This document shows, in pieces, positions 51,295-59,964 of a DNA stretch of 64,000 bases. The DNA is taken from assembly GCA_945860865.1 (NCBI GenBank), contig CAMARW010000005.1, forward strand, positions 4,364 through 68,363. The letters run 5' to 3'. The notes under the pieces are model-generated. The model saw only the letters and a program-made list of their open reading frames with translations. It did no database searches and was not told where the DNA came from. This stretch comes from Chitinophaga pinensis (GTDB lineage: Bacteria > Bacteroidota > Bacteroidia > UKL13-3). Position numbers and translations under genes: made by a program. The stretch's first letter is position 1. Each line of letters begins with the position of its first letter.

Positions 51295-52230
51295 TTAAGC
51301 TGGTGCTTTTTCTGTTTCTGATGTTCCCCAAGCGGCTAATTCGCTCTCACTCCAAAGTTCTGGGAAGTAGATGCGTCTTTGAAAAGCTGGATGCAAATAC
51401 TTTTCCCAATGACTGCCACCAGTAGCTGTTTTGGTTTCACCTTTAGATTTTAAATAGGTTCTAGCTGTTTCCAAATGCACCATTGGCCAATCTATATTAT
51501 ATTTTCTATCAAATGCACGTAAGGCTTCTACCAAAGCAGTTTTGCCTGCCTCATCCAATTTAGGCAGCATGCTTTTGTATCGCTGGTTAAGGTTTAACGT
51601 TTGCATTTGTTCGGCAGTTTGAACAAATAATGGCATATATTTTTGTTCAAAATCGGTGAGCGTTTTATTTTTCTTGTTGGTTTCTCTATTAAAACCAGCT
51701 TCTTGCCAATACAACAAACCAAATTTATCTTGCAAGCTAGTTTCTGGCTTCACATGATTTCTTAAATAGGCCGGAATTAATAAATCTACATCTGTGCACA
51801 TTAATTCGATGAACCTAAATTGTGCCGACTGAAAACCACTTGCTGGTGATAAACTCAACCTGAATTTATTATAATCCTCATAGCTCATGCCTTGGTTCAT
51901 AATGCTAAAAGAACTGCTGAGTAAATCGGTATAACGTACCATTCTATATAATTTCTCAACAAACAAATTAGGTTCTATTTCGCTTAAGCACAATTGGTCT
52001 AATTCATGTCTAATAAGCTTTAAAACCAATTCTGTAATTTGGTGGTAAACAATAAAAATGGTTTCGTCTTTAAAATCTGTTCTTGGATTTTGTAAGGTAA
52101 GCAAGGTGTCTACCATCACATATTCCCAATAGTTTATAGCTCTATTGTGTTTTAATCCCCTTAAATAGTTCTCTGGGTCCTGACCGTTTGCTATTAACTT
52201 ATCTTTTATTTCTTGTAAAATATCTTCCAT
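51295..52230 (-). CDS. tryptophan 2,3-dioxygenase family protein
   Basis: 311 aa. A TDO-like helical heme enzyme with a YWEYVMVDTLLTLQ block that resembles the TDO Y..YL.LD.LL..Q region. Confidence 0.65.
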   Translation of the reverse strand: MEDILQEIKDKLIANGQDPENYLRGLKHNRAINYWEYVMVDTLLTLQNPRTDFKDETIFIVYHQITELVLKLIRHELDQLCLSEIEPNLFVEKLYRMVRYTDLLSSSFSIMNQGMSYEDYNKFRLSLSPASGFQSAQFRFIELMCTDVDLLIPAYLRNHVKPETSLQDKFGLLYWQEAGFNRETNKKNKTLTDFEQKYMPLFVQTAEQMQTLNLNQRYKSMLPKLDEAGKTALVEALRAFDRKYNIDWPMVHLETARTYLKSKGETKTATGGSHWEKYLHPAFQRRIYFPELWSESELAAWGTSETEKAPA

Positions 52231-52319
52231 CTTCTTGTTTTTTGTGCATTAGTTTTGTGGCTCAAATATTCTACTTTATTTTCAATTGTTTGAACCTATT
52301 TATTATTTCGCATAAATTT

Positions 52320-52994
52320 TCATGGATTCTGGACTTTTGATTTATACTCATCATGCAGTCCGATGCTGGCGTATATTTGATCTTTGTGTTTTTCAATACG
52401 CGCCAGGCGGGTGCTACTTTGCTTAGCTTGCGCAAAGTGAATCAAATACGCCCTTTGGCGACCAGGAGTAAGCGCTTCAAAAGCATTTTTAAAAAGCGGT
52501 TCCTTGTCAAAGCATTGAATCAACTCTTCTGGTATTATTTCTTTGTGCGGGGTAGGTGTAAGTTTTTTGCCCGATTTTTCAATCTCAATAGCTTCTCGTA
52601 TATACAGCGATAAAATTTTACCCAAGGCCTCAATCTCTTCTATTTTTACAAATTTTATAATTCTGCCTAGTTGAATATTTCCCTGTTGTTGCAGGAGTTT
52701 ATGCTCGTCTTTAAGCAAAGCACCTTTAAAAAAACTGAGATTGGCCGAGTGTTTTAGTGCATTTAAACTTGCAATATTTTTTCCCTCATAAGTATAAACG
52801 GGCACGCCCCATTTTATTTCTTCTGTAAGGCCACATGCTAAAACAATTTGCCGCAGGGTTTCTAATAGCTCTTGCCAAGGAATAACTTTGCATTGCGGAG
52901 TAGCACCATATTTACAGCGCATGCAGCCGTCTACCATGTATTTGTCTACAAGCGGATTGAAAACTAATTGAGTCATATTATTTTGAATTGGCAA
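52320..52994 (-). CDS. YdeI/OmpD-associated family protein with a DUF1801 domain
   Basis: 224 aa. YdeI-like N-terminal region (CGLTEEIKWGVPVYTYEGKNI...FFKGALLKD). An alternative start at 52976 is possible. Confidence 0.65.
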   Translation of the reverse strand: MPIQNNMTQLVFNPLVDKYMVDGCMRCKYGATPQCKVIPWQELLETLRQIVLACGLTEEIKWGVPVYTYEGKNIASLNALKHSANLSFFKGALLKDEHKLLQQQGNIQLGRIIKFVKIEEIEALGKILSLYIREAIEIEKSGKKLTPTPHKEIIPEELIQCFDKEPLFKNAFEALTPGRQRAYLIHFAQAKQSSTRLARIEKHKDQIYASIGLHDEYKSKVQNP

Positions 52995-53232: not shown

Positions 53233-53502
53233 ATGACAATTCAAGATTTGGACAGGGTAATAGAAATGGCTTGGGAAGATAGAACTCCTTTTGAAGCCAT
53301 ACTTATGCAGTTTGGCCTGCGCGAATCTCAAGTAATTGATTTGATGCGAAAAGAATTAAAACGCAGCAGTTTTAATAGGTGGCGCAAAAGAGTAAATAGC
53401 GGAGTTAGTCAGAAACATTTGCACAAACGCAGCGATGAAATAGACCGTTTTAAATGTAGTAGACAAAGAAATATTACGCATAATAAAATAAGTAAACGTT
53501 AA
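53233..53502 (+). CDS. small conserved protein associated with photolyase clusters (TIGR03643-like, possibly DUF2805; from memory)
   Basis: 89 aa, basic at the C-terminus. It sits immediately upstream of the photolyase genes. Confidence 0.45.
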   Translation: MTIQDLDRVIEMAWEDRTPFEAILMQFGLRESQVIDLMRKELKRSSFNRWRKRVNSGVSQKHLHKRSDEIDRFKCSRQRNITHNKISKR

Positions 53503-53505
53503 ATA

Positions 53506-54609
53506 ATGAACCACCGTTTTGAGCCCAATATAAACGCTGTTTTGGAGCGCGTAGATGCTATTGATCCTGTGGCTTATGCTAAAACTAGAAATTACTTAAA
53601 CGGGGCCGTAACGTATTTATCTCCTTACCTCTCGCGGGGCGTAATTAGCACCCAACAAGTATTGGAGCGTTTAGTAGCCAAAGGTCACTCAATTCATCAA
53701 ATGGAAGTTTTGGTAAAAGAGTTGGCATGGCGCGATTATTTTCAACGAGTTGGGCAGCACAAAGATTTGGGTTCCGACATTAAACAACGACAGGGAAAGC
53801 TCAATAATTATCAAATACCCATCGCCGTAGTTGCGGCTAAAACCGGCATAGAGGCCATTGATGCAGCCATTTTAGGTTTGTATCAAAATGGTTATATGCA
53901 CAACCACCTGCGCATGTATTTGGCTTCTGTTACTTGTAATGTGGCACAATCGCATTGGAAAATGCCCGCACAATGGCTTTACTACCACTTATTAGATGGC
54001 GATTTTGCAAGCAATATATGCAGTTGGCAATGGGTTGCTGGCGCCAATAGCAGCAAATTGTATTTTGCCAATCAAGAAAATATCAATACGTATACGCAAT
54101 CTAAACAACGCAATACTTTCTTAGATTGCTCTTACGAAGACCTTCCAGATTTAAATGTGCCAGCGGCGTTAATACCACTTCAAAACATAGATTACCAAAC
54201 GGTTTTGCCACCTACAGATGTGCTTCAAATAAATCCCAATTTGCCCACCTTGGTATATAATTATTATAACCTCGATCCTAATTGGCATGCCACAGAAAAC
54301 GCCAATCGAATTTTATTAATTGAGCCTAGTCTGTTTCAAAAATTTCCGGTTGCGCCCCATTGCATGGCGTTTATGCTACAACTAGCTTCCCAAATTGAAG
54401 GCGTGCAAATACATGTTGGTAGTTTTCAATCTTTGCTGAACCTATGCGGTGGCATTAATGTGTTTTTTAAAGAACATCCGCTTAATGTGGGTTATGTGGG
54501 TGTGGAAGAAAGCAGAGATTGGTTGGTGCCCAATGTAAGTGGATATTTACCCTCGTTTTTTGCCTATTGGAACAAAATTAGTAAGCCGCTTTACGCGCAA
54601 TATAAGTAG
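53506..54609 (+). CDS. NewPHL-like photolyase with inverted topology (N-terminal FAD-binding catalytic domain and C-terminal capping domain)
   Basis: 367 aa. Residues 1 to about 210 carry cryptochrome/photolyase FAD-domain blocks (LSPYLSRGVIS, ELAWRDYFQ, TGIEAIDAAILGLYQNGYMHNHLRMYLAS, LLDGDFASNICSWQWVAG). There is no N-terminal alpha/beta domain, and a C-terminal region of about 150 aa of different character follows. Confidence 0.6.
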   Translation: MNHRFEPNINAVLERVDAIDPVAYAKTRNYLNGAVTYLSPYLSRGVISTQQVLERLVAKGHSIHQMEVLVKELAWRDYFQRVGQHKDLGSDIKQRQGKLNNYQIPIAVVAAKTGIEAIDAAILGLYQNGYMHNHLRMYLASVTCNVAQSHWKMPAQWLYYHLLDGDFASNICSWQWVAGANSSKLYFANQENINTYTQSKQRNTFLDCSYEDLPDLNVPAALIPLQNIDYQTVLPPTDVLQINPNLPTLVYNYYNLDPNWHATENANRILLIEPSLFQKFPVAPHCMAFMLQLASQIEGVQIHVGSFQSLLNLCGGINVFFKEHPLNVGYVGVEESRDWLVPNVSGYLPSFFAYWNKISKPLYAQYK

Positions 54610-54612
54610 CCA

Positions 54613-56109
54613 ATGTTCAAAGAAGATATTGCAGTTGTTTGGTTTAAAAGAGACCTTCGGCTTTTAGACCATGAGCCGCTGTTTTTGGCCCAACAATCTA
54701 AATTGCCCGTTTTATTGCTCTACTGTTTTGAACCTAGCATTATGCAATACCCCGATAGCGATGTGCGCCATTGGCGGTTTGTTTACCAATCTTTGCAAGC
54801 CATGCAGCAAAATTTGCAGCCCTTTAATACCCAATTGTATGTTTTCCACCAAGAGGCTTATTGGGTTTTTCAGCAACTTCAGGAGCGTTATCAAATAAAG
54901 CAAGTGTTCTCTTACCAAGAGGTGGGCACGCAAATTACATACAACAGAGATCTAGCTTTGGCAGCATTTTTTGGTTCGAACCAAATACGCTGGAAAGAGT
55001 GCCGATTAAATGGGGTAGTGCGCAAGTTAAAAAACAGAAAAACTTGGCAACAACGTTGGGAAAAAACCATGCTTGCTCCCGTGTTTAAAGTCGCTATGTC
55101 GGACATGCCTTTTTTAAATTTGGACACAAATTGGTATGCGGCACGTGTAGGTTCAGACCTGCCCCAAGCAATTAAAGAGGGCAACCCCGTGTTTCAGGTG
55201 GGGGGCGAACCAATGGCTTGGCGGTATTTAAACAGCTTTTTAAATGAAAGGCATGTGAACTATTCTAAGCATATTTCTAAACCAGCTCTAAGCAGAACGG
55301 GTTGCAGCAGGATTTCGCCCTATCTTACTTATGGTAATTTGAGTATGCGATTGGTTTATCAGGCTACTATTAAACAATATGCAGGTTCTAAAAACAAACG
55401 CGCCCTTAGCAATTTTATGTCGCGCTTACACTGGCATTGCCATTTTATGCAGAAGTTTGAAGATGAAATGCGTATGGAGTTTGAACCGGTAAATAGGGCG
55501 TATGAAGCTTTAAACAAACCCAAGAATGAACAATTTATTGAGGCTTTTGAAAACGGACAAACAGGCATTCCTATTATAGATGCTAATATTCAATGTTTGG
55601 TTCAAACCGGATATATTAACTTTAGGATGCGGGCTATGTTGGTTTCGTTTTTTGTATATAACCTTTGGCAAGATTGGCGCGATTTACATTTCTTAGCGCG
55701 TAATTTTTTAGACTATGAGCCCGGCATTCATTACCCTCAAATACAAATGCAAGCAGGATTAACGGGTGTAAATACCATTAGAATGTATAACCCAATTAAA
55801 AATAGTTATAGTCATGATGAAGAAGGATTGTTCATTAAAAAATGGTTGCCCGTATTGGCTAATTTACCAACATCACTCATTCATGAGCCTTGGAAAATGA
55901 CACAAATGGATCAACGTTTTTATGGCGTACAAATTGGGAAAGATTATCCTGCGCCCATTATAGCAATGGAGGCGAGCAGAAAGGTTGCCAGTGATGTAAT
56001 GTATGGCTTCCGCAAGGGAGGATCATCATCTGACCATGAGTTAGCTAAAGCCGAAGGCAAGCGCATCCTAGCCAAGCACACCTCCGCCTCGCCCCGCAAG
56101 GGCGGATGA
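54613..56109 (+). CDS. deoxyribodipyrimidine photolyase / cryptochrome-DASH-type protein
   Basis: 498 aa. N-terminal [16 protein letters not shown] and a FAD-binding domain ([29 protein letters not shown]). It has an odd C-terminal tail of about 30 aa, discussed in the findings. Confidence 0.85.
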
Positions 56110-56119
56110 TCATCCGCCC
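56100..56119. repeat. perfect 20-nt palindrome GGGCGGATGA/TCATCCGCCC that includes the photolyase stop codon
   Basis: Read directly from the sequence. It shares the stem GGGCGGA/TCCGCCC with the hairpins at 34685 and 34753. A degenerate direct copy lies 85 nt upstream at 56011-56035. Confidence 0.7.
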
Positions 56120-56137: not shown

Positions 56138-56281
56138 ATGAAAAAACAAAACTTACCAATCAAAATCTGTTTAACCTGCAACAGGCCATATACGTGGCGC
56201 AAGAAATGGGAGAAGGTATGGGATAAGGTGAAATATTGTAGTAAAAAATGTAGTTCGAACCGAAATAAAATAAAAGCATGA
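56138..56281 (+). CDS. DUF2256 zinc-ribbon protein (not in the ORF track)
   Basis: 47 codons encoding MKKQNLPIKICLTCNRPYTWRKKWEKVWDKVKYCSKKCSSNRNKIKA. Cys pairs are CxxC...CxxxC and the WRKKW block is characteristic of DUF2256. The stop TGA overlaps the ATG of the next gene as ATGA. Confidence 0.75.
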   Translation: MKKQNLPIKICLTCNRPYTWRKKWEKVWDKVKYCSKKCSSNRNKIKA

Positions 56282-57753
56282 TAGGACTGGTATTTCCGAA
56301 TCAATTGTTTGAGCATAGTAAGCTCATTGATACTTGCAAAAAGATATATGTGATAGAAGAATATTTGTTCTTTAAACAATATGCTTTTCACAAGCAAAAG
56401 CTCGCTTTTCATAGGGCCAGTATGCAGTTTTATGTATCGTATTTATTGGCCCAAAACAAGGAAGTTGTTTATATAGATGCCCAGCATTTAGAGAGTGATA
56501 TTAGGCATTTTGTGGCGGCCCGCGCGCAAGAGCAGTGTAGCGAATTATGTTTAATAGATCCTACTGATAATTATTTAGCAAGACGCTTAAACAGCGCTGC
56601 CCAAAAACACCAAATAGCATTGGTTCAGCATGTTTCTCCTTTATTTATGAATACGCAGGAGGAGAACCAAGCTTTTTTTGCGGGCAAGAAGAGGATGTTT
56701 CAAACAGATTTTTACATGCAGCAGCGCAAAAAAGGCAAAATTTTGCTTGATGGCGTGGGCAAACCATTGGGCGGAAAATGGTCTTTTGACGAAGAAAATC
56801 GCCTAAAATACCCCAAAGATAAAACGCCGCCAACAACTCATTTTTTAGCGCCCAATGCTTTTTACCAAGAAGCCATAAAATACGTAAATACGCATTTTGC
56901 CAATAACCCAGGTTACCTGCAATTAAATACATTTTACCCTTGCACATTTGAAGAAAGCAAGCAATGGTTGCAAGATTTTTTGGTGCATAGATTTGCAGAA
57001 TTTGGTCCTTACGAAGATTCCCTCGTTTCCAAAGAATTGGTTTTAAATCATAGTTTAATCAGTCCGCTTTTAAATGCAGGTTTATTGTCGGTAGATAAAG
57101 TGATAGCCACAGCTGTAAAATTTGCAGAAGCGCACTCGGTACCGCTTAATTCATTGGAAGGATTTGTGCGCCAAATAATAGGGTGGAGGGAGTTTATTAG
57201 AGCCGTTTACGAGCAGGTTGGAACCATAGAACGAACCGAAAATTATTGGGGATTTACCCGAAAAATTCCTGCTTCCTTTTACACAGGCACCACTGGCATT
57301 GAACCCATAGATAACTCCATAAAAAAAGTGATAAAACATGGTTATGCGCACCACATAGAACGCTTAATGGTATTGGGTAACTTTATGTTGTTATGTGAGT
57401 TCGATCCAGATGAGGTATATAGGTGGTTTATGGAGATGTTTATAGATGCATATGATTGGGTAATGGTGCCCAATGTATATGGTATGAGTCAGTTTGCCGA
57501 TGGCGGCTTAATGGCTACAAAACCCTATATAAGCGGAAGCAATTACTTGATGAAAATGGGCGATTATAAAAAGGGAGAATGGCAACCTATTTGGGATGGA
57601 TTGTTTTGGCATTTTATGGATAAGCAAAGAGCCTTTTTTCTCCAAAATCCACGCCTCGGTATGCTAATTAGAACCTTTGATAAAATGGCTCCAGAGAAAC
57701 GCGTGCAGCACCTGCTTACGGCACAAAAATATTTGGATAGCTTAGCAGACTAA
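56278..57753 (+). CDS. cryptochrome/photolyase family protein of the FeS-BCP / (6-4) photolyase-like type
   Basis: 491 aa. The N-terminus (LVFPNQL...FHKQKLAFHRASMQFY) resembles the PhrB/CryB-type LILGDQL...HKQKLVLFLSAMRHF block. It is longer than the short photolyase neighbour. Confidence 0.75.
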   Translation: MIGLVFPNQLFEHSKLIDTCKKIYVIEEYLFFKQYAFHKQKLAFHRASMQFYVSYLLAQNKEVVYIDAQHLESDIRHFVAARAQEQCSELCLIDPTDNYLARRLNSAAQKHQIALVQHVSPLFMNTQEENQAFFAGKKRMFQTDFYMQQRKKGKILLDGVGKPLGGKWSFDEENRLKYPKDKTPPTTHFLAPNAFYQEAIKYVNTHFANNPGYLQLNTFYPCTFEESKQWLQDFLVHRFAEFGPYEDSLVSKELVLNHSLISPLLNAGLLSVDKVIATAVKFAEAHSVPLNSLEGFVRQIIGWREFIRAVYEQVGTIERTENYWGFTRKIPASFYTGTTGIEPIDNSIKKVIKHGYAHHIERLMVLGNFMLLCEFDPDEVYRWFMEMFIDAYDWVMVPNVYGMSQFADGGLMATKPYISGSNYLMKMGDYKKGEWQPIWDGLFWHFMDKQRAFFLQNPRLGMLIRTFDKMAPEKRVQHLLTAQKYLDSLAD

Positions 57754-58424
57754 AACCCTTTTTGAGGTTTTTGATACTTCTCTTTCAAAAGCGATTTACG
57801 CATGCCGCGTACTGATTCTAAAGGTGCTTTATCTATAAATAAATTAATAAGCCAAAGGGGAATAACCCCTCCAGGGTCTACTGCAATGATGTATTCGGCC
57901 TTACACAGTTTTGGATTTATTTGGGTTATGTGCCACTTAGCTTTCATAAATGGCACGCGAACAAAACCCTTTTTATGGGGTAAAAACTGAGCCTCACTAT
58001 TGGCGTATATAAAAAATTCTCCTACAGTTTTACTAGGTTCAACCCGCTGCCTAAAAGCGCCATCTCTATTCTCAAAGGGCCAGGGCACATACAATTCTTG
58101 GTAATAAATTTGTTCGAACCTATTTATTTTCTGCAATACATTCGATTGTTTACACCCAAATTGATAAGCCGCTTGCTCAGGTATATCTGTAATTAGCTGC
58201 ACCAATGTTTGTGCACTACACTCAAACTCGGCAATAGTCTTTAATTCTTTAATTGCCAATCCCGGGTAAGTGCGCACGTATACCTGGATTTGCTCTATGT
58301 TTTTTGATAGCTGCCAAGAGATTTGGGCCGTTGCCTGTTTTGATGAGAAAGGAAGAAATAACATTGCCATTAAGGAAAATTTTAGCCACCTCAAAATGTC
58401 AGTATTAAAGGATTTGTTTGTCAA
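57750..58424 (-). CDS. START/SRPBCC-like lipid-binding domain protein (secreted)
   Basis: 224 aa with a signal-peptide-like N-terminus. A START-like fold is inferred from sequence character only. Confidence 0.45.
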   Translation of the reverse strand: MTNKSFNTDILRWLKFSLMAMLFLPFSSKQATAQISWQLSKNIEQIQVYVRTYPGLAIKELKTIAEFECSAQTLVQLITDIPEQAAYQFGCKQSNVLQKINRFEQIYYQELYVPWPFENRDGAFRQRVEPSKTVGEFFIYANSEAQFLPHKKGFVRVPFMKAKWHITQINPKLCKAEYIIAVDPGGVIPLWLINLFIDKAPLESVRGMRKSLLKEKYQKPQKGF

Positions 58425-58666: not shown

Positions 58667-59380
58667 ATGGAAAAAACATTTTTGAGAGCAGATTGGGAAC
58701 ACCTAGTTATGGCAAATTACCGGGTAGATCCCAGTATGCTAGAGCCTTATTTACCGCATGGTGTGGAGCTAGATTATTTTAATGGCTCAGCCTATGTAAG
58801 TTTGGTTGGATTTATGTTTAAAAAAACAAGTTTATTCCATATTCCTATTCCGTTTTTTGGGTCTTTTGAAGAGATAAACCTTAGGTTTTATGTAAAGAGA
58901 ATAGACGGCAAAAAAATTAAAAAAGGAGTGGTCTTTATCAATGAAACAGTTCCCTTTAAAATAGTAGCCATTTTAGCAAACATCCTTTACAAAGAGCACT
59001 ATATATCTATCCCAACCCGCCATTCAATTGATTTGTCAGAAAATGTTAACATAAAATATGAATGGAAAATCAATCATAAATGGAATGCTATCTCATTTTT
59101 ATGTGCCACCGAAAAACATAAAATAGAACAAAACTCCATAGAGGAATTTATTTTTGAACGTTATTTTGGATTCACAAAACTAGACAAAAATAACTCGCAA
59201 GAATTTAGGATTAACCACCCCAAATGGCTAACTCAAAAAATAATAAAATGTGATATCAACTGCGATTTTACAGCCATGTACGGATCATCTTTTGCCGGCC
59301 TGAACCAACAAAAACCAGATTCAATCCTTTTTGCAAATGGATCATCTGTATCTGTAAATTGGAAACGGAATAAATTTTAA
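58667..59380 (+). CDS. DUF2071 (YqjF-like) domain protein
   Basis: 237 aa. N-terminal DWEHLVMANYRVDPSMLEPYLP is characteristic of DUF2071. Confidence 0.7.
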   Translation: MEKTFLRADWEHLVMANYRVDPSMLEPYLPHGVELDYFNGSAYVSLVGFMFKKTSLFHIPIPFFGSFEEINLRFYVKRIDGKKIKKGVVFINETVPFKIVAILANILYKEHYISIPTRHSIDLSENVNIKYEWKINHKWNAISFLCATEKHKIEQNSIEEFIFERYFGFTKLDKNNSQEFRINHPKWLTQKIIKCDINCDFTAMYGSSFAGLNQQKPDSILFANGSSVSVNWKRNKF

Positions 59381-59964
59381 GGATATTTTATCTGTACGAT
59401 GATTTCATTTTTTCTCCCAACAAATTGATAGGGGGCATTGTAACCCAAAAAGCGAAAATTTCCTTCATATTCAATGCCGTTTTCTTTTAAACTACTTTCT
59501 AATTTTTTAGCATAGGCTTTTATGCTCGTATCATCTGCATATCCGCTAAAGGTAATGGCTGCAACATATTCTTCTTTTGTAACAATTATGTTTACAGAAG
59601 TATCATTGGGCTTGGGTAGATTATTTTTCATGTAATCTGCTGGCATTACAAAACTCATAGAAGATTTTGATTCGTTTATATCCATATGAACCGGCGTGGT
59701 CATGGCAATTTTTGTATTAGAAGCATTGCCTCCAAAAATATAGCCAGCCAATTTTCTAAATCCGGGTGAAGCTAATTCTTTGTAGCTTTTGGCATTCATA
59801 CTTACGGTTGCCATAGTGGCTGCTGGGTAAAGGCGTATTTCAAAATCTTTTACAGTTTTAATTACCTTGTAATTTTGTGTTTCGGTTTGGGCCATAATTA
59901 AAAAGGTTTGAGATAAGAAAACTAAAACAGTAAGTAGGGCTATGATTACCAAAGATTTTTTCAT
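59377..59964 (-). CDS. SOUL heme-binding family protein
   Basis: 195 aa with a signal peptide and SOUL/HBP-like blocks (PGFRKLAGYIFGGN, GYNAPYQF). Confidence 0.75.
   Translation of the reverse strand: MKKSLVIIALLTVLVFLSQTFLIMAQTETQNYKVIKTVKDFEIRLYPAATMATVSMNAKSYKELASPGFRKLAGYIFGGNASNTKIAMTTPVHMDINESKSSMSFVMPADYMKNNLPKPNDTSVNIIVTKEEYVAAITFSGYADDTSIKAYAKKLESSLKENGIEYEGNFRFLGYNAPYQFVGRKNEIIVQIKYP

What the first reader, a model, noticed from the sequence alone, without database searches (positions are those of the whole stretch)
53506..54609. Photolyase homologue with inverted domain order (NewPHL-like) inside a photolyase cluster
The first 210 or so residues of this 367-aa protein are clearly the FAD-binding catalytic domain of the cryptochrome/photolyase superfamily (SPYL..G.IS, WRDYF, TG..HN.LRMYLAS and LLDGD.ASN..SWQW blocks). 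The canonical N-terminal alpha/beta antenna domain is missing, and a short C-terminal domain of different character follows instead. That architecture matches the NewPHL class of single-strand-DNA CPD photolyases, which has been described but is rarely annotated. The gene sits between a TIGR03643-like small ORF and a canonical DASH/CPD-type photolyase. Having NewPHL and DASH side by side is unexpected if NewPHL normally substitutes for DASH.
Basis: partly seen in the sequence, partly recalled or inferred. Interest (0 to 1): 0.7.

Follow-up and report, generated by a model that had tools for sequence, protein, structure and literature searches.

The report
NewPHL/SPL-type short photolyase gene

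Summary
The ORF 53506-54609 (+, 367 aa) is real and intact. Its only Pfam domain is FAD_binding_7, at the N-terminus. There is no DNA_photolyase alpha/beta domain. The upstream ORF is a complete DUF2805/TIGR03643 gene, so a frameshifted N-terminal domain is excluded.

All CPD-contacting and FAD-contacting residues are present: E72, W75, N133, R136, M137, D164, D166, N170, W174 and W176. There is a Trp dyad rather than a triad. Spacing from N133 to W176 is identical to that published for DsNewPHL.

The class is already published as NewPHL (Emmerich 2020), the same class as SPL (Xu 2021). That work includes a Bacteroidetes subgroup "Ba" and operon linkage to a prokaryotic (6-4) photolyase.

The neighbouring 498-aa gene is not a DASH cryptochrome. 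It fails the NCBIfam DASH cut-off and lacks the E274, N341, N378, W382 and W384 equivalents, which matches NewCRY / "DASH-like". The claimed surprise therefore disappears.

The operon is DUF2805, NewPHL, NewCRY, DUF2256, then a cysteine-less (6-4) photolyase, and it recurs across Bacteroidota MAGs.

Verdict: correct identification of an ordinary member of a known class. Interest is low.

The parts
53233..53502 (+). Small ORF (89 aa), DUF2805 / TIGR03643 family. It is the first gene of the operon, and its stop lies 3 nt before the NewPHL ATG.
   Evidence: PF10985 at 115 bits over profile 1-71/71. TIGR03643 at 109 bits against a cut-off of 66.6. A homologue sits immediately upstream on the same strand in 46 of 78 related loci.
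53506..54609 (+). NewPHL/SPL-class photolyase gene (367 aa plus stop).
53506..54120 (+). All-alpha FAD-binding catalytic domain (aa 1 to about 205). Key residues are E72, W75, N133, H134, R136, M137, W151, D164, D166, N170, W174 and W176.
54121..54243 (+). Extended linker with short helices (aa about 206-246) between the two domains.
   Evidence: DSSP string of the AF2 model.
54244..54606 (+). Z-domain (aa about 247-367). It is a small alpha/beta domain (five strands alternating with helices) ending in the conserved motif G346-Y-L-P-S350-F351-F352-A-Y354-W355.
54613..56109 (+). 498-aa two-domain CPF protein of the NewCRY / 'DASH-like' type, not DASH. Its start lies 3 nt after the NewPHL stop.
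   Evidence: PF00875 plus PF03441. All NCBIfam models are below cut-off. Catalytic residues are replaced, and the replacements are shared by 25 of 25 homologues in related loci.
56138..56281 (+). 47-aa DUF2256 zinc-ribbon-like ORF. It falls below the ORF-list threshold, and its stop overlaps the next gene's ATG (ATGA).
   Evidence: Read from the sequence. PF10013 at 70.9 bits. Homologues occur in 32 of 80 related loci, directly upstream of the (6-4) photolyase homologue in those checked.
56278..57753 (+). 491-aa prokaryotic (6-4) photolyase homologue (DPRP / PhrB family) lacking the four Fe-S cysteines. It is the last gene of the operon and is convergent with a START-domain gene.
   Evidence: PF04244 at 169 bits. 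260 bits to PhrB 4DJA/5KCM, with the CxxC loop deleted and the C350 and C454 equivalents replaced. All 37 of 37 homologues in related loci also lack the cysteines.

Best explanation
The ORF encodes a complete, functional-looking member of the NewPHL (= SPL, short photolyase-like) class of the cryptochrome/photolyase superfamily. It belongs to the roughly 365-aa form that dominates in Bacteroidota, subgroup 'Ba' of Xu et al. Inferred mechanism: the N-terminal all-helical domain binds FAD. After photoreduction to FADH- through a two-tryptophan chain (W174 to W151), blue or near-UV light drives electron transfer from FADH- to a cyclobutane pyrimidine dimer. The dimer is held by E72, W75, N133, M137 and W176; the ring splits and the electron returns. 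The C-terminal Z-domain packs on the catalytic domain in the place the antenna domain occupies in canonical photolyases, sealing the FAD pocket. There is no inter-domain linker or phosphate-binding loop, so by analogy with DsNewPHL and MmNewPHL the substrate is expected to be CPD in single-stranded DNA. No antenna chromophore and no Fe-S cluster are expected. The gene is tightly coupled (3-nt gaps, one 4-nt overlap) in a five-gene operon: DUF2805, NewPHL, NewCRY-type CPF, DUF2256, and a cysteine-less prokaryotic (6-4) photolyase. The operon looks like a UV-damage photoreactivation module. Shown here: architecture, residue conservation, the confident two-domain fold and conserved synteny. Inferred: FAD binding, CPD specificity, ssDNA restriction and co-transcription.
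For: - Domain order.
- No room for an upstream domain.
- Family size: 4913 proteins at E<=1e-5 in the 90% collection. In the 50% representative library there are 4768 hits at E<=0.001 and 179 at E<=1e-30. The strongest full-length matches are 355-397 aa. A second set of 400-445-aa proteins shares 40-46% identity over the catalytic domain only and also lacks an N-terminal alpha/beta domain.
- Active site and FAD residues: invariant or nearly invariant in 69 close homologues and in 46 diverse representatives.
- Spacing: E72/W75 and N133/W151/W174/W176 (+3, +18, +23, +2) matches the published DsNewPHL residues E81/W84 and N151/W169/W192/W194.
- Trp chain: no Trp lies between W75 and W151, so there is a dyad, as reported for the class.
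- Fe-S: no CxxCx5C cysteine pattern, as described for subgroup Ba.
- Literature: the class definition, the Bacteroidetes subgroup and the SPL plus photolyase operon are already described.
- Synteny.
Against: No biochemical data exist for any Bacteroidota (Ba) member. ssDNA specificity and FAD-only content are extrapolated from two subgroup-A proteins and one subgroup-Ac protein. I could not obtain the DsNewPHL, MmNewPHL or CmSPL sequences for a direct alignment (no supplements held; the afdb50 library was unavailable). The Z-domain of the roughly 365-aa form aligns with that of the 400-445-aa form convincingly only at the terminal S-F-x-x-[YWF]-W motif. The published 'GFF' motif reads S-F-F here. 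Model coordinates could not be inspected, so 'caps the FAD pocket' rests on pTM and on the published covariation analysis.
Confidence: 0.82

Rival explanations
1. It is a light sensor or regulator (a bacterial cryptochrome) rather than a repair enzyme, with the Z-domain acting as a signalling extension. Xu et al. raised this possibility for SPL C-terminal extensions.
For: RfSPL repair activity is weak and its knockout has little phenotype. The gene lies next to a CPF with a degenerate active site and to small, basic proteins that may bind DNA (DUF2805 and DUF2256).
Against: Every residue needed for CPD binding and catalysis is retained and nearly invariant across the family. Cryptochromes and NewCRY typically lose these residues. 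Two NewPHLs and one SPL repair CPDs in vitro. The Z-domain is a compact folded alpha/beta domain, not a disordered tail.
Confidence: 0.08
2. It is a truncated remnant or mis-called fragment of a canonical two-domain photolyase, through N-terminal loss, a frameshift with the upstream ORF, or an assembly artefact.
For: The length (367 aa) is well below that of canonical photolyases (420-500 aa), and a small ORF sits only 3 nt upstream.
Against: The upstream ORF is a complete member of an unrelated family. The same architecture, at 362-371 aa, occurs in thousands of proteins and in at least 80 genomes. The identical protein is found on six independent contigs. The C-terminal 160 aa are conserved and fold confidently.
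Confidence: 0.01
3. It is the organism's main CPD photolyase and acts on duplex DNA as well as ssDNA, so it is not an ssDNA-only auxiliary enzyme. Operon partners such as the flavin-reductase-like protein seen in relatives might assist it.
For: No class I, II or III CPD photolyase is present in the 64-kb window. The operon otherwise supplies only a (6-4) photolyase and a catalytically degenerate CPF. A Flavin_Reduct gene directly follows NewPHL in 45 of 73 related loci. The Ba-type Z-domain differs from that of the characterised subgroup A.
Against: Of NewPHL/SPL-bearing species, 94-96% also have a class I/III or (6-4) photolyase elsewhere, and only 64 kb of this genome was seen. The class lacks the linker and phosphate-binding loop thought necessary for flipping lesions out of duplex DNA.
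Confidence: 0.1

Closest known systems
NewPHL (Emmerich et al. 2020, NAR, PMC7736829): DsNewPHL (A8LJA9) and MmNewPHL (M7YZC8)
   Same: N-terminal FAD/catalytic domain with no antenna domain in front. C-terminal Z-domain of about 150 aa. Full CPD active site, Trp dyad, bacterial origin, and co-occurrence with a (6-4) photolyase. Spacing of the N/W/W/W catalytic residues is identical.
   Different: Shorter (367 aa against 405). The loop between E and N is 9 residues shorter. The Z-domain is only weakly alignable to the 400-445-aa relatives, except at the terminal S-F-x-x-[YWF]-W motif, which reads SFF here where the paper reports GFF. No biochemistry exists for this subgroup.
SPL subgroup 'Ba' (Xu et al. 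2021, MBE, PMC8476157), representative Cyclobacterium marinum SPL
   Same: Bacteroidota origin. No four-cysteine Fe-S motif. Has a C-terminal extension. Encoded in one operon with a prokaryotic (6-4) photolyase. A 'DASH-like' CPF is often present in the same genome.
   Different: None detected at the level I could test. The CmSPL sequence itself was not available for alignment.
Class I CPD photolyases (E. coli PhrB 1DNP, Synechococcus 1TEZ/1OWL)
   Different: No N-terminal alpha/beta antenna domain or inter-domain linker. R342 is H (the class-wide 'HNH' signature). The W306 equivalent is absent. A small alpha/beta domain is appended at the C-terminus instead.
DASH cryptochromes (Synechocystis 1NP7), compared with the neighbouring 498-aa gene
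   Same: DASH is the neighbour's closest solved relative (141 bits, full-length alignment), and both have the two-domain architecture.
   Different: The neighbour fails the TIGR02765 cut-off (129 against 317 bits). It has R, F, H, I and M at the E274, N341, N378, W382 and W384 equivalents, so it fits NewCRY / 'DASH-like' rather than DASH.

Membership tests
NewPHL / SPL | The FAD-binding catalytic domain is at the N-terminus, with no alpha/beta (PF00875 or PF04244) domain preceding it | tested here: met
   Pfam finds only PF03441, at aa 70-201. NCBIfam and PDB alignments map query aa 20-187 to residues of about 222-400 in canonical photolyases. The upstream ORF is a complete, unrelated gene.
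NewPHL / SPL | An ordered C-terminal Z-domain (about 50-150 aa) follows the catalytic domain | tested here: met
   About 160 conserved C-terminal residues. AF2 pLDDT is about 88-97 over aa 210-367 in the full model with pTM 0.90, and 87 for the domain alone.
NewPHL / SPL | One conserved Trp and a 'GFF' motif in the Z-domain (Emmerich et al.) | tested here: inconclusive
   The query has G346-YLP-S350-F351-F352-A-Y-W355. S350, F351 and W355 are invariant in 69 homologues. The column reads S or G, then F, then F or S across diverse representatives, and a few read GFF.
NewPHL / SPL | Strict conservation of the CPD-binding residues (EcPhr E274, W277, N341, M345, W384) | tested here: met
   E72, W75, N133, M137 and W176. 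Conservation is shown.
NewPHL / SPL | FAD-binding residues (EcPhr R344, D372, A377, N378, G381) | tested here: met
   R136, D164 and N170 are conserved. The A377 and G381 equivalents are S169 and S173, a substitution shared by nearly all members of the class sampled.
NewPHL / SPL | Only two of the three Trp of the photoreduction triad are present (W359 and W382 kept, W306 absent) | tested here: met
   W151 and W174 are present and invariant. No Trp lies between W75 and W151 in the translation.
NewPHL / SPL | Clusters with the characterised members (A8LJA9, M7YZC8, RfSPL, CmSPL) in an SSN or phylogeny | not tested
   Reference sequences were not obtainable: no supplements are held, afdb50 was unavailable, and none was found among the fetched proteins. 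Indirect support comes from catalytic-residue spacing identical to DsNewPHL numbering.
NewPHL / SPL | Light-dependent repair of CPD in ssDNA only, with FAD as the sole chromophore | not testable with these tools
   Requires purified protein and repair assays.
SPL subgroup Ba | Bacteroidetes origin and absence of the four Fe-S cysteines | tested here: met
   All 80 best genome loci come from MAGs or isolates, almost all labelled Bacteroidota lineages. There is no CxxCx5C pattern; the only Cys after the catalytic domain are C208, C286 and C314, none of them invariant among 69 homologues (C286 is nearly so). The subgroup is described.
DASH cryptochrome (for the neighbour 54613-56109) | Reaches the TIGR02765 trusted cut-off and retains the CPD-binding E and N and the FAD-proximal N | tested here: not met
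   128.9 bits against a cut-off of 317.05. E is replaced by R, N by F and N by H, seen in the alignment to 1NP7 and in 25 of 25 homologues.
NewCRY (for the neighbour 54613-56109) | A two-domain CPF lacking the E274 and N341 equivalents, previously annotated as a CPD photolyase, found in bacteria | tested here: met
   the definition is. There was no direct comparison with VcCry2.
FeS-BCP (for 56278-57753) | Four cysteines coordinating a [4Fe-4S] cluster (PhrB C350, C438, C441, C454) | tested here: not met
   C350 is replaced by P, the CxxC loop is deleted and C454 is replaced by P. The same holds in 37 of 37 homologues. The protein therefore fits the cysteine-less 'subgroup M' prokaryotic (6-4) photolyases such as PromaPL.

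The most novel reading that the evidence does not exclude
Probability: 0.3. Interest if true: 0.5.

Novelty: new member of a known kind. Interest (0 to 1): 0.22.

Why it matters
Practically, this is an annotation correction. The gene and thousands of homologues are labelled generically as 'deoxyribodipyrimidine photo-lyase' or 'FAD-binding domain-containing protein', and can be assigned to NewPHL/SPL. The neighbour belongs to NewCRY / 'DASH-like', not DASH. Scientifically, the Bacteroidota subgroup has never been characterised. The conserved operon, with its two small DUF proteins and, in most relatives, a flavin-reductase-like gene, offers testable partners. The predicted alpha/beta fold of the Z-domain bears on whether this class is ancestral or derived. 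None of this overturns current knowledge.

Tried and rejected
- **Frameshift or fusion with the upstream ORF:** rejected, because that ORF is a complete DUF2805/TIGR03643 gene.
- **Neighbour as DASH:** rejected.
- **Other CPF genes in the window:** tblastn with the three paralogues found only the three themselves.
- **Reference NewPHL sequences:** no supplements are held for either paper. The afdb50 structure library was unavailable. A scan of fetched proteins for the DsNewPHL residue pattern found none.
- **Cluster look-up:** it returned generic names and no organism for the window's protein.
- **Profile-profile comparison of the Z-domain with photolyase N-terminal domains:** only weak matches, P 0.096 and 0.0043 with probability 0.6-8%. 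This is suggestive but not evidence of homology.
- **Sigma-70 promoter and intrinsic terminator scan of the operon:** fewer hits than in shuffled sequence, so uninformative; Bacteroidota promoters are not covered.
- **Literature searches:** nothing links DUF2256 or TIGR03643 to photolyases.

Full report
**Observation.** The window carries an uninterrupted ORF at 53506-54609 (+) of 367 aa.
- Pfam detects a single domain, FAD_binding_7, at aa 70-201 (E 1.1e-22). It finds no DNA_photolyase or DPRP alpha/beta domain.
- NCBIfam photolyase and cryptochrome models (DASH, PRK10674, 8-HDF type, plant cryptochrome) match only through their C-terminal halves, model positions about 222-400, to query aa 20-183. 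All score far below their cut-offs.
- The PDB sequence search gives the same picture. The best hits are class I CPD photolyases 1TEZ and 1OWL (E about 4e-15), covering only query 24-181 against chain 227-397. No solved chain covers the C-terminal part, so no NewPHL structure appears to be deposited.
- The upstream ORF 53233-53502 matches DUF2805 and TIGR03643 end to end and stops 3 nt before the ATG.

**What it is.** The protein belongs to a very large family.
- There are 4913 hits at E<=1e-5 in the 90% clustered collection. The best 120 are all 362-389 aa and carry only PF03441.
- In the 50% representative library there are 4768 hits at E<=0.001 and 179 at E<=1e-30. The strongest are full-length matches of 355-397 aa.
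- A second set of 400-445-aa proteins shares 40-46% identity over the catalytic domain only. These also start directly with the catalytic domain.
- Aligned to Synechococcus photolyase, with motifs located by script, the query has the following E. coli equivalents:

| Query residue | E. coli equivalent |
|---|---|
| E72 | E274 |
| W75 | W277 |
| N133 | N341 |
| R136 | R344 |
| M137 | M345 |
| W151 | W359 |
| D164 | D372 |
| D166 | D374 |
| N170 | N378 |
| W174 | W382 |
| W176 | W384 |

- These residues are invariant or nearly so in 69 close homologues and in 46 diverse representatives of both length types.
- R342 is replaced by H134 in nearly all members, giving an 'HNH' signature.
- No Trp occupies the W306 position, so the photoreduction chain is a dyad.
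- The spacings E72-W75, N133-W151, W151-W174 and W174-W176 (+3, +18, +23, +2) equal those of the published DsNewPHL residues E81/W84 and N151/W169/W192/W194.

**Structure.** AlphaFold2 with a 69-sequence alignment gives pLDDT 93.7 and pTM 0.90.
- Residues 1 to about 200 are all-helical. A linker follows. Residues 248-365 form a beta-alpha-beta unit with five strands.
- hhalign of a Z-domain profile against N-terminal-domain profiles of the two neighbouring CPF genes gave topologically sensible but non-significant alignments (P 0.096 and 0.0043).
- 'Inverted domain order' is therefore a fair structural description. Homology of the Z-domain to the antenna domain remains a hypothesis. Emmerich et al. 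already noted a similar resemblance in contact maps.

**Comparison with the literature.**
- Emmerich et al. 2020 defined NewPHL by the features found here: an N-terminal catalytic domain, a C-terminal Z-domain, a conserved CPD active site and a Trp dyad. They also showed FAD as the only chromophore and ssDNA-specific CPD repair for the D. shibae and M. mesophilicum enzymes.
- Xu et al. 2021 independently described the same class as SPL. They divided it into five subgroups, including 'Ba' (20 of 24 members from Bacteroidetes, representative C. marinum SPL, no Fe-S cysteines). They noted that an SPL and a prokaryotic (6-4) photolyase are predicted to share an operon in C. marinum and other organisms.
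- The query has no four-cysteine pattern.
- All 80 best genomic relatives are from MAGs or isolates, almost all labelled Bacteroidota lineages such as Chitinophagaceae, Sphingobacteriia and Crocinitomicaceae.
- The identical protein occurs on metagenome contigs from JGI and Logan assemblies.
- The finding is thus a typical, uncharacterised member of a published class and subgroup.

**Neighbourhood.** The gene is the second in a tightly packed same-strand set:
1. DUF2805 (53233-53502)
2. NewPHL (53506-54609)
3. A 498-aa CPF (54613-56109)
4. A 47-aa DUF2256 ORF (56138-56281)
5. A 491-aa PhrB/DPRP-family protein (56278-57753)

The gaps are 3 nt, 3 nt and 28 nt, followed by a 4-nt overlap.

Synteny in the 80 related loci:
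- A DUF2805 homologue lies directly upstream in 46 of 78 loci.
- The (6-4) photolyase homologue lies within 4 kb downstream in 31 of 47 loci, and the 498-aa CPF is present as well in 15 of 47.
- DUF2256 is present in 32 of 80 loci.
- A flavin-reductase-like gene (PF01613) directly follows NewPHL in 45 of 73 loci but is absent from this window.

The 498-aa neighbour is not DASH.
- Its closest solved relative is Synechocystis DASH, but at only 141 bits.
- It scores 129 bits against the DASH model, whose cut-off is 317.
- It carries R, F, H, I and M at the E274, N341, N378, W382 and W384 equivalents. R, F, H and M are shared by all 25 homologues in the related loci; the W382 equivalent is L or F in those homologues.
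- Lack of E274 and N341 is how Emmerich et al. define NewCRY. Xu et al. list a 'DASH-like / prokaryote-specific' group present in 36% of SPL genomes.

The 491-aa gene aligns to PhrB at 260 bits and keeps the His-His motif. It lacks all four Fe-S cysteines, as do 37 of 37 homologues. This matches the cysteine-less 'subgroup M' prokaryotic (6-4) photolyases such as PromaPL.

**Mechanism (inferred).** FAD is bound in the N-terminal domain and photoreduced via W174 to W151. Excited FADH- donates an electron to a CPD held by E72, W75, N133, M137 and W176, the cyclobutane ring opens, and the electron returns. The Z-domain takes the place of the antenna domain in shielding the flavin. Absence of the inter-domain linker and phosphate-binding loop predicts activity on ssDNA only, as measured for subgroup-A enzymes. 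Together with the adjacent (6-4) photolyase, the operon would cover both major UV photoproducts. The roles of NewCRY, DUF2805 and DUF2256 are unknown.

**Rivals.**
- A photoreceptor role is possible but disfavoured by the intact active site.
- A truncated or frameshifted gene is excluded.
- A broader role as the main CPD photolyase, including on duplex DNA, cannot be excluded from 64 kb of sequence, since no other CPD photolyase lies in the window. It runs against the published co-occurrence statistics.

**Verdict.** The feature is real, ordinary for Bacteroidota and already described in the literature, so interest is low (0.22). The most novel residual reading is that the Z-domain is a permuted antenna domain. 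That would make NewPHL derived rather than ancestral, and I put its probability at about 0.3.

Noticed in passing
window 56138-56281 (+): A 47-aa DUF2256 ORF (PF10013, 70.9 bits) lies between the NewCRY-type gene and the (6-4) photolyase gene, and its stop overlaps the next ATG (ATGA). It is too short for the ORF list. It is also not called in the public records of the same locus, where a gap is left between the genes at L081 12604-12773. Homologues are present in 32 of 80 related loci.
   Followed up: partly
window 56278-57753 (+): This PhrB/DPRP-family (6-4) photolyase homologue lacks all four [4Fe-4S] cysteines: the C350 equivalent is P, the CxxC loop is deleted and the C454 equivalent is P. 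It keeps the catalytic His-His. The same holds in 37 of 37 homologues in related loci. It matches the published cysteine-less 'subgroup M' (PromaPL type).
   Followed up: yes
L017 11104-11718 and 44 other related loci (absent from the window): A 204-aa flavin-reductase-like gene (PF01613) sits immediately downstream of NewPHL in 45 of 73 related Bacteroidota loci. It may be a functional partner, for example in dark reduction of FAD. No homologue was found anywhere in this 64-kb window.
   Followed up: partly
window 54613-56109 (+): The NewCRY/'DASH-like' CPF has His at the position of the FAD-N5-proximal Asn (N378 equivalent). It lacks both W382 and W384 equivalents. The His and the W384 replacement (M) are conserved in 25 of 25 homologues; the W382 equivalent is I here and L or F in homologues. 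This flavin environment is unusual, and the function is unknown.
   Followed up: partly
window 56100-56119: A perfect 20-nt GC-rich palindrome (GGGCGGATGA|TCATCCGCCC) spans the stop codon of the 498-aa gene. A second short GC hairpin (CGCCC-CGCAA-GGGCG) precedes it. The region is otherwise AT-rich and there is no T-tract after it. It could be an RNA structure or a protein-binding site between the two halves of the operon.
   Followed up: no
window 58667-59380 (+) and 53233-53502 (+): A DUF2071 gene lies directly upstream of DUF2805 and NewPHL in 24 of 71 related loci. In this window it is displaced to about 1 kb downstream of the operon. DUF2071, DUF2805 and DUF2256 therefore all appear to be photolyase-associated genes of unknown function.
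   Followed up: partly
window 51295-52994 (-), 57750-58424 (-), 59377-59964 (-): The flanking genes are a tryptophan 2,3-dioxygenase, a DUF1801/YdeI-OmdA protein, a START-domain protein and a SOUL haem-binding protein. The dioxygenase and YdeI neighbours recur in only a few related loci.
   Followed up: no
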